DNA of 42,109 bases from an uncultured Curvivirga sp. (GTDB lineage: Bacteria; Pseudomonadota; Alphaproteobacteria; UBA8366; Aestuariispiraceae): positions 1 to 42,109 of the forward strand of contig CBFCZA010000001.1 in the NCBI GenBank assembly GCA_965602285.1, in the 5' to 3' direction. The notes under the pieces were generated by a model that had not been told where the DNA came from, did not search any database, and saw only the letters and a program-made list of their open reading frames with translations. Position 1 is the stretch's first letter. The number at the start of each line of letters is the position of its first letter. Of the stretch, positions 30,658 through 34,475 are shown in pieces. Made by a program: the position numbers and the translations under genes.

Positions 30658-31617
30658 TTAGCTATTTAAGGATTGTGTCCGACGATACATGGGAATGCTA
30701 ATGTCAGTGCGTGGATAGGCAATAACACTAACCATAGGTGTTCCGGATTTATTACGATTTGGTAAAATCAATCGTTCATAATTTAACCATTGATCTTCTC
30801 TGTGATCAAATCGGACCAACGCACGAACATGCTGATAAATAGGTTGATCATTATTTAAAGATTCTACATAAGATTTGGTAGTACTGTGACTATAAAGGTC
30901 ATCTATAATATTGTCATCTAAGGGTTTATTGATGGCTTTGCGTCGCCATTCTTCACCCATTAAAGAGCTAATGTACGACTTGGTACCTAAATAGCTAACA
31001 TTAAACTTGCAGTCATTTTCATTTTCATAGGTATAACGTTGCAAGTAATCATCAATAAAGTGGTTGCCTGTCCTAGAAGAAGGTCCAGTTTCAAACTTAC
31101 CTTGCTTCCAAGCGTCAAGCGCAATTCTTATGGGGTTGGATGAGTTATTGAAATAACTATCCGGTGTATCGATAATAGGATGATTCTCAAAGAAAATACC
31201 ATTATCAGATCCTTTGTTCTTATGGCTTTGGATCTCTATGATACGCCTAATGGCATTATGTGGGTTTGTATGTATTTCTTTACACCAGCCGCCATCTAAA
31301 AAATAAAATGAGAAGCTTTTAAAACTATTTAATTCTTTTTTGAGATAATCCAGAAGGCTTGTCATCGCAAGGCTTGTAGTATTTTTATTGTCCCAAGTAA
31401 TGGAAACCTTATCGTTTGACGTTAGGTCTACTTGGATTAGTTTTAAATAACTGAAGGCTGTGTCATGGATATTTATATCTGGAAGTTCAGTTTCTTGGTC
31501 TTCACTGAGGTCATTCGCGCAAAATTTACCGGCTTTCCATTGTCCAGTATCAAGGATGTAAAACCGTTGTTCTTGCTGAGATTTATAGTAATAATTGTTG
31601 TGATAAATTAGTTTCAT
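30658..31617 (-). CDS. Hypothetical protein (319 aa), C-terminal PAS-like fold suspected
   Basis: AT-rich ORF with SD GGGGG; C-terminal QPIYQHVRA...WLNYERLILP resembles alphaproteobacterial PAS-like proteins. Confidence 0.65.
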   Translation of the reverse strand: MKLIYHNNYYYKSQQEQRFYILDTGQWKAGKFCANDLSEDQETELPDINIHDTAFSYLKLIQVDLTSNDKVSITWDNKNTTSLAMTSLLDYLKKELNSFKSFSFYFLDGGWCKEIHTNPHNAIRRIIEIQSHKNKGSDNGIFFENHPIIDTPDSYFNNSSNPIRIALDAWKQGKFETGPSSRTGNHFIDDYLQRYTYENENDCKFNVSYLGTKSYISSLMGEEWRRKAINKPLDDNIIDDLYSHSTTKSYVESLNNDQPIYQHVRALVRFDHREDQWLNYERLILPNRNKSGTPMVSVIAYPRTDISIPMYRRTQSLNS

Positions 31618-31783: not shown

Positions 31784-32128
31784 TTAAATAGCACAGGCTT
31801 TAATAAGATTTAAAACTTGATTTCTAACATTATCATCTGGAATGGAATCGATACGTTTAGCAAGTTCGATTGTTCTGCGAGGTAATGTTTTTGCATTAGC
31901 TTCAGCTTCTGAATCTAAACCATCAAAGAAATATGTAATTGGTGTTTCAAGGGCGCTTGCGATATCCCAAAGGCGACTGGAACCAATACGGTTAGTTCCT
32001 TTTTCATATTTTTGAACTTGTTGAAAGCTTACGCCAAGGATTTTTCCAAGTTGTTCTTGGCTCATGCTTTTAGCAGCACGAGATTCACGGACTTTGCGAC
32101 CTACATGAATATCAGTGGGATGTGGCAT
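31784..32128 (-). CDS. XRE-family HTH regulator (PraR/PhrR-like alphaproteobacterial family)
   Basis: HPTDIHVGRKVR...MSQEQLG..LGVSFQQVQKYEKGTNRIGSSRL...YFFDGL; SD AGGAG. Confidence 0.93.
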   Translation of the reverse strand: MPHPTDIHVGRKVRESRAAKSMSQEQLGKILGVSFQQVQKYEKGTNRIGSSRLWDIASALETPITYFFDGLDSEAEANAKTLPRRTIELAKRIDSIPDDNVRNQVLNLIKACAI

Positions 32129-32444: not shown

Positions 32445-33209
32445 ATGGATGCGTCCGGCGCAATTCGAAAAATTAAAAGTCTGGAACCATCGATGAATAA
32501 GCGATCTGGAGACGGCATTTTAGAAGATGATAGTCTAGTTGAAGCTATTCGTGCGGTTACCAAGGTTCCTTCGCAACGTAAGGTTTCCTATGCTATTCCA
32601 TGTGCTTCGCAATTTCGCGATCAAGTAAGTGAATTGGCTGATCGTCGCAATGTTAATGTTGGTGATATCGCGCGTTCTGTGATGCTGACATTGCCGGAAA
32701 AAATCATTGAATCTATGGAAGATCCCGGCGAGCCGAATGTCGAGGACCGTGAGACTATCATTCTGAAGTCAGGACCAAGTGCTGGCAAACCATGGCGTAG
32801 GAAGCCGCGTTTGCAAGTTCGAATGCCTGCTGGTTATGATATGGTTGTGATCCGAAAAGCCCTTGCTTTGGCTCTTGAGCTGGATGGCGGCAAGATTAAT
32901 ATAAGTCTAGAAGATCCTTCTTTACCAACGCGTAAAGAGCAAGCTGATAAGGATCGTGAAAAGATCATACGATTGCATACAATTGTGACGGCCATGTCCT
33001 TTGAGCTTATTAAAGGTGGTGTGCAAACTCTAGAAGAAGCCTTATATGTATTAGGGTTTCCCCCTTCATCGCGCCCGAATATGAGTGACGTTAAGCAACG
33101 GTTTAGGTTGATGGCAACGATTCATCATCCTGATAGTGATCTTGGTGGGCATGAGAGAATGTCACAGTTAAATGATGCTGTTTCATTATTGCGCCGAACG
33201 TTACCATAG
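32445..33209 (+). CDS. J-domain (DnaJ-like) protein with N-terminal RHH-like region
   Basis: C-terminal ALYVLGF...VKQRFRLMATIHHPD...RMSQLNDAVSLL; SD GAGGTG. Confidence 0.82.
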   Translation: MDASGAIRKIKSLEPSMNKRSGDGILEDDSLVEAIRAVTKVPSQRKVSYAIPCASQFRDQVSELADRRNVNVGDIARSVMLTLPEKIIESMEDPGEPNVEDRETIILKSGPSAGKPWRRKPRLQVRMPAGYDMVVIRKALALALELDGGKINISLEDPSLPTRKEQADKDREKIIRLHTIVTAMSFELIKGGVQTLEEALYVLGFPPSSRPNMSDVKQRFRLMATIHHPDSDLGGHERMSQLNDAVSLLRRTLP

Positions 33210-33246: not shown

Positions 33247-33303
33247 ATATTGCAATATGCATAAAATATGCATAAATTGCACAAAATAACTAATTGTGCA
33301 TAA
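33247..33303. promoter_or_regulatory. Cluster of TGCA-core palindromes and repeats (candidate operators)
   Basis: ATATTGCAATAT (33247-33258), tandem ATATGCATAAA x2 (33255-33276), TGCACAA-N9-TTGTGCA (33278-33300). Confidence 0.6.
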
Positions 33304-33305
33304 AA

Positions 33306-34475
33306 ATGAAACATAGAATAAAACAAGCTCGTTTAAGAATGAATTTAAGTCAGCAGCAGTTGGCTGACAAGATAGATGTGTCTCATTCTACATTGAATCG
33401 GTGGGAAGCAGGCCATCGAGAGCCTAAACGTGACCATTTAGAAGCTTTGGCTTCGGCCTTATCTGTATCATTGGAATGGTTGATGTTGGGGAGGGTGGCT
33501 TCCCGGCAAACCTCATCTTCTATAGCAACAACGCCAATGCAGCGTCATCATGAAGCTATTTCAAAATCTGAAGCCCCCTATTATAATCCAGAAAACCCCC
33601 CTTCAGGGCAGGAGTCCGCCATGTTAAAACATCCATCAGAAGTTAATCCGGTTATTGCTTATCAAGGTGTGCCCGGTGCCTATTCGCATTTGGCATGTCG
33701 TGAAGCATTCCCCCATTTAGAACCATTGTCATGCTTAAGTTTTGAAGATGCATTTGAGGCAGTAGAGACGGGTAAGGCGGGTCTTGCTATGATACCGATT
33801 GAAAATAGTCTTGGCGGTCGGGTTGCTGATATTCATCATCTATTACCAGATTCCAATCTCTATATTATTGGAGAGCATTTTCAGCCTATAAACCATTGTT
33901 TGTTGGCACCAAAAGGTGCGGAATTAAGCAAGATTAAAGAAGCGCGAAGCCATACACAGGCTTTGGCCCAGTGTCGTGATACTTTGCGTGAATTGAAAGT
34001 TACACCTGTTAAACATGCGGATACAGCAGGGGCAGCCAAGGAAATTGCAGAATTAAATGATCCAACCATTGCGGCTGTTGCAAGTGGTTTGGCGGGCGAT
34101 ACCTATGGTCTAGATGTTTTGCGTCATCGCATTGAAGATAAAATCGGTAACGTGACACGGTTTATTGTTATGTCGCGTACACGTATCGAGCCTGACCCAC
34201 GTTCTGGTCCTTGTTTAACCAGTTTTGTATTTCAGGTCCGAAGTATTCCAGCAGCATTATATAAATCTATGGGTGGTTTCGCGACCAATGGTGTGAACTT
34301 TGTGAAGTTGGAAAGCTATATTTCTATCGCAGATGTGAACACAGCACGTTTCTATGCAGAAATCGAAGGCCATCCTGCTGATAAGGCTGTTGATAGAGCC
34401 TTTGAAGAACTTCAATTTTATACAACAAAAGTGAAAGTCTTGGGGACTTTTCCAAAGAATAATCCCAAAGACTAA
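33306..34475 (+). CDS. pheA: XRE-HTH / prephenate dehydratase in-frame fusion (PheA proper from internal ATG 33621)
   Basis: N-terminal RIKQARLRMNLSQQQLADKIDVSHSTLNRWEAG; PDT motifs IAYQGVPGAYSH, PIENSLGG, SHTQALAQC, NVTRF; ACT domain with KLES. Confidence 0.92.
   Translation: MKHRIKQARLRMNLSQQQLADKIDVSHSTLNRWEAGHREPKRDHLEALASALSVSLEWLMLGRVASRQTSSSIATTPMQRHHEAISKSEAPYYNPENPPSGQESAMLKHPSEVNPVIAYQGVPGAYSHLACREAFPHLEPLSCLSFEDAFEAVETGKAGLAMIPIENSLGGRVADIHHLLPDSNLYIIGEHFQPINHCLLAPKGAELSKIKEARSHTQALAQCRDTLRELKVTPVKHADTAGAAKEIAELNDPTIAAVASGLAGDTYGLDVLRHRIEDKIGNVTRFIVMSRTRIEPDPRSGPCLTSFVFQVRSIPAALYKSMGGFATNGVNFVKLESYISIADVNTARFYAEIEGHPADKAVDRAFEELQFYTTKVKVLGTFPKNNPKD

What the first reader, a model, noticed from the sequence alone, without database searches (positions are those of the whole stretch)
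33306..34475. XRE DNA-binding domain fused in frame to prephenate dehydratase: candidate phenylalanine-sensing enzyme-regulator
Seen: one uninterrupted ORF encodes a complete XRE/Cro-like HTH (about 62 aa), a linker of about 43 aa, and a full PheA (PDT domain with NVTRF plus ACT domain). Established: PheA ACT domains bind Phe allosterically, and the usual PheA fusion partner is chorismate mutase, not an HTH. Enzyme-regulator fusions such as PutA, BirA and NadR exist, but I do not know of an XRE-PheA. Inference: the dimeric, Phe-responsive enzyme could serve as the sensing and dimerisation module for the HTH, giving Phe-dependent transcriptional control. This is the strongest candidate for an undescribed system in the window.
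Basis: partly seen in the sequence, partly recalled or inferred. Interest (0 to 1): 0.85.

Follow-up and report, generated by a model that had tools for sequence, protein, structure and literature searches.

The report
Phenylalanine enzyme that represses own gene
In a group of alphaproteobacteria the phenylalanine-making enzyme prephenate dehydratase carries a conserved, fused DNA-binding domain, and a DNA palindrome that changes along with that domain sits at the gene's predicted promoter, so the enzyme likely represses its own gene, possibly in response to phenylalanine.

Summary
The fusion is real. An XRE helix-turn-helix, a disordered linker and an intact prephenate dehydratase share one frame in 24 of 25 other genomes of this family, in 6 of 6 from two neighbouring families, and in 82 of the best 120 protein clusters. 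Linker length varies, no split form was found, and the HTH is under purifying selection. It is the genome's only PDT. A 17-bp palindrome (33267-33283) overlaps the predicted -10 box. A matrix built only from relatives ranks it first in the genome. The palindrome is absent before 76 unfused genes and changes with the recognition helix (His: GTGCA; Gln: ATGCG), though kinship partly confounds this. No wider regulon was found, so control is of its own gene. An internal ribosome-binding site and ATG (33621), kept in 20 of 33 loci, probably yields a short enzyme-only form as well. Phenylalanine sensing is untested; the floppy linker argues against rigid allostery. This is a new variant of the enzyme-repressor fusions (BirA, NadR, RbkR; architecture of BzdR); my paper searches found no description. 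This scan noted the same system on another genome (e1-5242437).

The parts
33306..34475 (+). XRE-HTH::prephenate dehydratase fusion gene, 389 aa
33306..33491 (+). XRE/434-repressor-like HTH, residues 1-62; recognition helix HSTLNRWE
   Evidence: HTH_3; 434 and P22 repressor hits; five helices, pLDDT above 90; dN below dS
33492..33620 (+). variable, predicted disordered linker
   Evidence: pLDDT under 50 at residues 66-95 and 97-105; 24-60 codons in relatives
33610..33623 (+). internal Shine-Dalgarno (AGGAG) and ATG at 33621; predicted start of a 284-aa enzyme-only form
   Evidence: sequence
33621..34475 (+). PDT catalytic domain (TRF at 284-286) and ACT domain
33267..33283 (.). predicted operator, 6-5-6 palindrome centred on the candidate -10 box
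33256..33274 (.). second, overlapping perfect 7-5-7 palindrome in the promoter spacer (possible second site)
33250..33278 (+). candidate sigma-70 promoter (-35 at 33250-33255, -10 at 33273-33278); tentative
   Evidence: own script; below the threshold of the consensus scan, which did not list it

Best explanation
The gene encodes a prephenate dehydratase fused to an XRE DNA-binding domain, which likely binds a palindrome at its own predicted promoter and represses its own transcription, with phenylalanine likely acting as co-repressor through the ACT domain. Shown: the fusion, its conservation, selection on the HTH, intact catalytic and ACT motifs, sole PDT copy, the palindrome and its link to the HTH. 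Inferred: the enzyme dimer holds two HTHs together over the two half-sites; binding blocks RNA polymerase (here the site covers the candidate -10 box). Least certain: Phe bound at the ACT dimer interface would tighten the dimer and so the repression; the linker is long, variable and disordered, so coupling through dimer strength is more likely than a rigid lever. In many lineages a weak or leaderless first start would make little full-length regulator, while the internal SD-led ATG would make short enzyme from the same mRNA. My odds: binds own promoter 0.9; represses 0.8; all steps including Phe 0.5.
For: In-frame fusion in 24 of 25 other family genomes, 5 of 5 in family f2, 1 of 1 in f5; 82 of best 120 clusters fused, TRF-type motif in 82 of 82. 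HTH dN below dS in 11 of 11 measurable pairs. One PDT in G000 and in 4 of 5 genomes searched by family; the fifth has a weak second hit. A matrix from six sites of four relatives ranks 33267-33283 first of 33 sites above 13 bits in 3.07 Mb. No site reaches 13 bits before any of 76 unfused genes. Leave-one-genus-out assignment of promoter to helix class: His class 6 of 6, Gln-NR class 6 of 8, 19 of 25 overall. Sites lie inside the candidate core promoter in three genera and just upstream of -35 in others. ACT motif matches unfused relatives; closest structure is a Phe complex; a related PDT is a dimer with Phe at the ACT interface (PMC8192741, passages). 13 of 33 loci lack an SD-led internal start, so there the full-length protein would be the enzyme.
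Against: No binding, expression or ligand data. Helix class and kinship are confounded: the AU test does not reject one clade for the His-type genes (p 0.198). The palindrome is weak or unclear in the QP and Q.AR classes (several correct calls have z under 1) and untestable in the one-genus Q.AL class. The genome-wide margin is small (19.0 against 18.4 bits). Promoters are predicted only. In about ten loci the site lies upstream of -35, where activation is possible. The disordered linker gives no route for allostery.
Confidence: 0.5

Rival explanations
1. Ligand-blind self-repression: the fusion caps its own copy number, and Phe acts only on catalysis.
For: Linker is 24-60 codons, fast-evolving and disordered; only one target found.
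Against: A separate XRE gene would do this equally, yet the fusion is never split in 129 locus rows, which suggests the enzyme part matters (for dimerisation at least).
Confidence: 0.2
2. The signal is the substrate: prephenate (or arogenate) in the catalytic cleft loosens DNA binding and induces the gene, as shikimate does for the synthetic BzdR-shikimate kinase chimera.
For: The catalytic domain has the periplasmic-binding fold also used by LysR effector domains (weak fold hits); chimera precedent (PMC3602430, passages).
Against: In that paper catalytic turnover prevented induction in vivo; the catalytic motif here is intact.
Confidence: 0.1
3. The protein activates its own leaderless transcript from a site next to -35, like lambda cI at PRM (recalled), or does both depending on site.
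For: Site centred 12-15 nt upstream of the first -35 base in 10 loci; leaderless-like first start in 17 of 33 (no chance control).
Against: In this window and in two other genera the site lies inside the core promoter; positive feedback on an end-product-inhibited enzyme has no clear use.
Confidence: 0.12
4. Effectively two proteins: the short PheA does the chemistry and the long form is a minor product with another role (or an XRE gene that lost its stop).
For: Strong internal SD-ATG in 17 of 18 linker ATGs against 35 of 183 control ATGs; databases also list short forms.
Against: 13 of 33 loci lack the internal start; frame kept through many linker indels; no relative has the stop.
Confidence: 0.07
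5. Assembly or frame artefact.
For: The genome is fragmented (493 contigs).
Against: The same fusion is in independent assemblies, including cultured species.
Confidence: 0.01

Closest known systems
Trigger enzymes with a fused DNA-binding domain: BirA, NadR, PutA, archaeal RbkR (PMC5397151, passages)
   Same: [quoted passage not shown]
   Different: Enzyme is prephenate dehydratase with its own allosteric ACT domain; only target found is its own gene; internal start would give an enzyme-only form; none of it tested at the bench.
BzdR of Azoarcus sp. CIB (PMC3602430, abstract, introduction and passages)
   Same: XRE HTH, linker, aromatic-pathway enzyme fold.
   Different: BzdR's domain is shikimate-kinase-like and has lost activity, dimerises through its N-terminal domain and controls a catabolic operon; here the enzyme looks intact and is the sole PDT. 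That paper found loss of catalysis essential; this protein would be a natural case that kept it.
Monofunctional alphaproteobacterial prephenate dehydratase (PRK11899; structures 6VH5, GqqA 7AM0)
   Same: 50% identity in the structural alignment to 6VH5, same fold, TRF and ACT motifs.
   Different: No HTH and no palindrome before the 76 unfused genes examined.

Membership tests
Trigger enzyme (enzyme-repressor fusion) | DNA-binding domain and enzyme in one chain | tested here: met
Trigger enzyme (enzyme-repressor fusion) | enzyme activity retained | tested here: inconclusive
   motifs intact, above equivalog cut-off, sole copy; activity not measured
Trigger enzyme (enzyme-repressor fusion) | binds an operator at genes of its own pathway | tested here: inconclusive
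   predicted operator at own gene only; binding not measured
Trigger enzyme (enzyme-repressor fusion) | metabolite changes DNA binding | not testable with these tools
   needs a binding assay
BzdR family | N-terminal XRE HTH plus linker | tested here: met
BzdR family | shikimate-kinase-like effector domain | tested here: not met
   C-terminal part is PDT; PRK08154 scores 19.7 against cut-off 204
Prephenate dehydratase PRK11899 | score above curated cut-off; TRF motif | tested here: met
   407.7 against 359; T284, R285 invariant in 37 rows
Prephenate dehydratase PRK11899 | Phe-binding ACT domain | tested here: inconclusive
   fold and motif present; Pfam ACT not hit; binding not measured
Bifunctional P-protein (chorismate mutase/PDT) | chorismate mutase domain | tested here: not met
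   no CM hit; PRK10622 155 against 577

The most novel reading that the evidence does not exclude
A one-gene phenylalanine thermostat: one mRNA yields a scarce full-length enzyme-repressor from a leaderless or weak start and an abundant enzyme-only form from an internal start; Phe at the ACT domain sets repression, mixed dimers of long and short forms could titrate it, and helix and operator have co-evolved into several specificities, giving a natural recognition-code series.
Probability: 0.3. Interest if true: 0.85.

Novelty: new variant of a known kind. Interest (0 to 1): 0.72.

Why it matters
It would add transcriptional self-control by the enzyme itself to the textbook ways of regulating pheA (feedback inhibition, attenuation; own knowledge). 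It would be a natural, catalytically intact stage of the enzyme-to-regulator path that was rebuilt synthetically for BzdR. Databases name these proteins only 'prephenate dehydratase', so the regulator is hidden. The helix/operator variants give testable specificity swaps, and a Phe-responsive repressor would be a useful biosensor part.

Tried and rejected
Wider regulon: none. In G000 the core pattern has 6 perfect matches, no more than with other spacers (2-6); in five His-type genomes 7 of 11 pattern sites are at pheA (pattern derived from these sites, so this shows only rarity elsewhere) and the other 4 lie at unrelated genes. Internal promoter for the short form: a TTCAAA-16-TATAAT match at 33560-33587 is not conserved; linker scores do not exceed coding controls. 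First motif run picked coding sequence of the upstream gene in one class and was redone on intergenic DNA. First neighbour classification was unreliable, redone by tblastn. Independence of the f5 His-type gene and single versus multiple origin: neither one-clade hypothesis rejected (p 0.198 and 0.209); the careful tree did not finish, quick tree used. Homodimer prediction gave no verdict. No sequencing run was listed. Paper searches for this fusion listed 0-2 papers each, none on it by title or abstract start; subscription papers are not covered and no supplements were read.

Full report
Observation. window:33306-34475 is one frame of 389 aa with HTH_3 at 5-59 and PDT at 117-292, above the cut-off of the alphaproteobacterial prephenate dehydratase equivalog. 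The AlphaFold model has two confident parts joined by about 40 residues of pLDDT under 50. The enzyme part matches a Phe-bound PDT structure at rmsd 1.9 A over 274 columns; the HTH resembles phage 434 and P22 repressors. Named relatives at 57-77% identity include Curvivirga, Hwanghaeella, Pacificispira and Marivibrio.

Conservation. Of the 30 best loci from 41 genomes, 29 carry the fusion in frame. With two more genomes the count is 24 of 25 other genomes of the family, 5 of 5 in f2 and 1 of 1 in f5. In the other three families of the order 42 genomes matched; 41 have open frames of 324 aa or less, and the 16 I cut out, including the one long frame, have no HTH. Among 129 locus rows (some genomes twice) 50 are fused; none of the 79 unfused has an HTH within 900 nt upstream (two had less DNA), so no split form was seen. 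A profile search gave 82 fused among the best 120 clusters, linkers 15-60 aa in the 79 parsed. Four far more divergent fusions turned up among 16 proteins picked from the 150 best representatives. Linkers take 19 lengths in 33 loci; HTH dN is below dS in all 11 measurable pairs of 12, highest ratio about 0.6. The fused gene is the only PDT in G000 (91% complete) and in three of four relatives; the fourth has a weak second hit.

Operator. Upstream of His-helix genes (HST.NR) lies TGTGCA-N5-TGCACA; upstream of QST.NR genes TATGCG-N5-CGMATA. Models trained without the test genus put 19 of 25 promoters in the right class of five: 6 of 6 His, 6 of 8 Q.NR, 2 of 4 Q.AR, 5 of 7 QP, several of the last with negligible z-scores; 8 rows of a one-genus class could not be tested. 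The window's site is reached by 1 of 200 shuffles. A matrix from relatives alone ranks it first in the genome, narrowly. None of 76 unfused upstream regions reaches 13 bits; the best, 10.5 bits, is the one family member that lacks the HTH and nests among His-type genes, possibly a decayed site. His with G and Gln with A fits the Gln-adenine contact of 434 repressor (recalled). Caveat: classes follow kinship; the f5 His-type gene falls outside the family clade in quick trees (support 93) but one His clade is not rejected.

Geometry and targets. In the window the site is centred on a candidate -10 box; in two other genera it lies between -35 and -10; in 10 loci it is centred 12-15 nt upstream of -35 (25 of 33 loci got a promoter call). 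The downstream gene is convergent, and no shared second target was found, so the predicted target is the gene itself. A kdsB-like gene (name recalled from its motif, not tested) precedes 46 of 76 unfused and 8 of 33 fused genes; a J-domain-like gene precedes 24 of 33 fused. This suggests an XRE module with promoter and operator entered between kdsB and pheA (inference).

Two starts. AGGAG precedes the in-frame ATG at 33621. Linker ATGs have a good SD in 17 of 18 loci against 35 of 183 ATGs inside the enzyme; unfused starts have one in only 17 of 72. An SD-led internal start is present in 20 of 33 loci; the first start looks leaderless in 17 and SD-led in 7 (the leaderless pattern has no chance control). 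No internal promoter is conserved. Where the internal start is missing (13 loci) the full-length protein would have to be the enzyme. Where present it may be an ancestral start kept for making short enzyme.

Mechanism. Best reading: enzyme-repressor of its own gene, dimerised through PDT/ACT, with Phe as likely co-repressor (0.5 for all steps; 0.8 for self-repression). TRF is the known catalytic triad and the ACT motifs mediate Phe feedback (PMC13217925, passages); a related PDT is a dimer with Phe at the ACT interface (PMC8192741, passages). The ACT motif equals that of unfused relatives except position 333 (Thr in 62 of 73 unfused, Ile/Val/Leu in 35 of 38 fused; Thr in 14 of 77 fused clusters). 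Rivals: ligand-blind dosage control, substrate sensing, activation.

Known systems. It works like BirA, NadR, PutA and RbkR (PMC5397151, passages) and is built like BzdR (PMC3602430, first fifth and passages), but is not a BzdR member. Six targeted searches found no paper on this fusion. Two other notes report XRE fusions to other enzymes (unchecked). Verdict: real, new variant of a known kind, interest 0.72.

Noticed in passing
window 32445-33209 (+): 254-aa gene with a weak C-terminal DnaJ match (E 0.011) and no other family; a relative lies directly upstream in 24 of 33 fused loci and in the family's unfused member.
   Followed up: partly
L023/L060 (G006), upstream of pheA: Family member that lacks the HTH but keeps a weak His-type palindrome (10.5 bits), perhaps a relic after loss of the HTH.
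   Followed up: partly
window 31784-32128 (-): A second, stand-alone XRE gene of 114 aa near the fusion.
   Followed up: no
window 30658-31617 (-): 319-aa ORF with no Pfam match even at E 1, between the leucine genes and the XRE gene.
   Followed up: no
window 33278-33300: A further inverted repeat made of two operator-like half-sites with a 9-nt spacer, just before the start codon.
   Followed up: no
L004 and L005 upstream regions: Two operators exactly 38 bp apart in two different genera.
   Followed up: no
proteins P0008, P0013, P0014, P0030: Divergent XRE-PDT fusions (40-48% identity), one of 608 aa with a very long Asn/Ser-rich linker; no genomic context seen.
   Followed up: partly
proteins P0151 and P0060: Other PDT fusions: with DAHP synthase, and with prephenate dehydrogenase.
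   Followed up: no
L039:1501-1517: One-mismatch operator-like site upstream of a gene that reads like a formate dehydrogenase subunit in one relative; not shared by others.
   Followed up: partly
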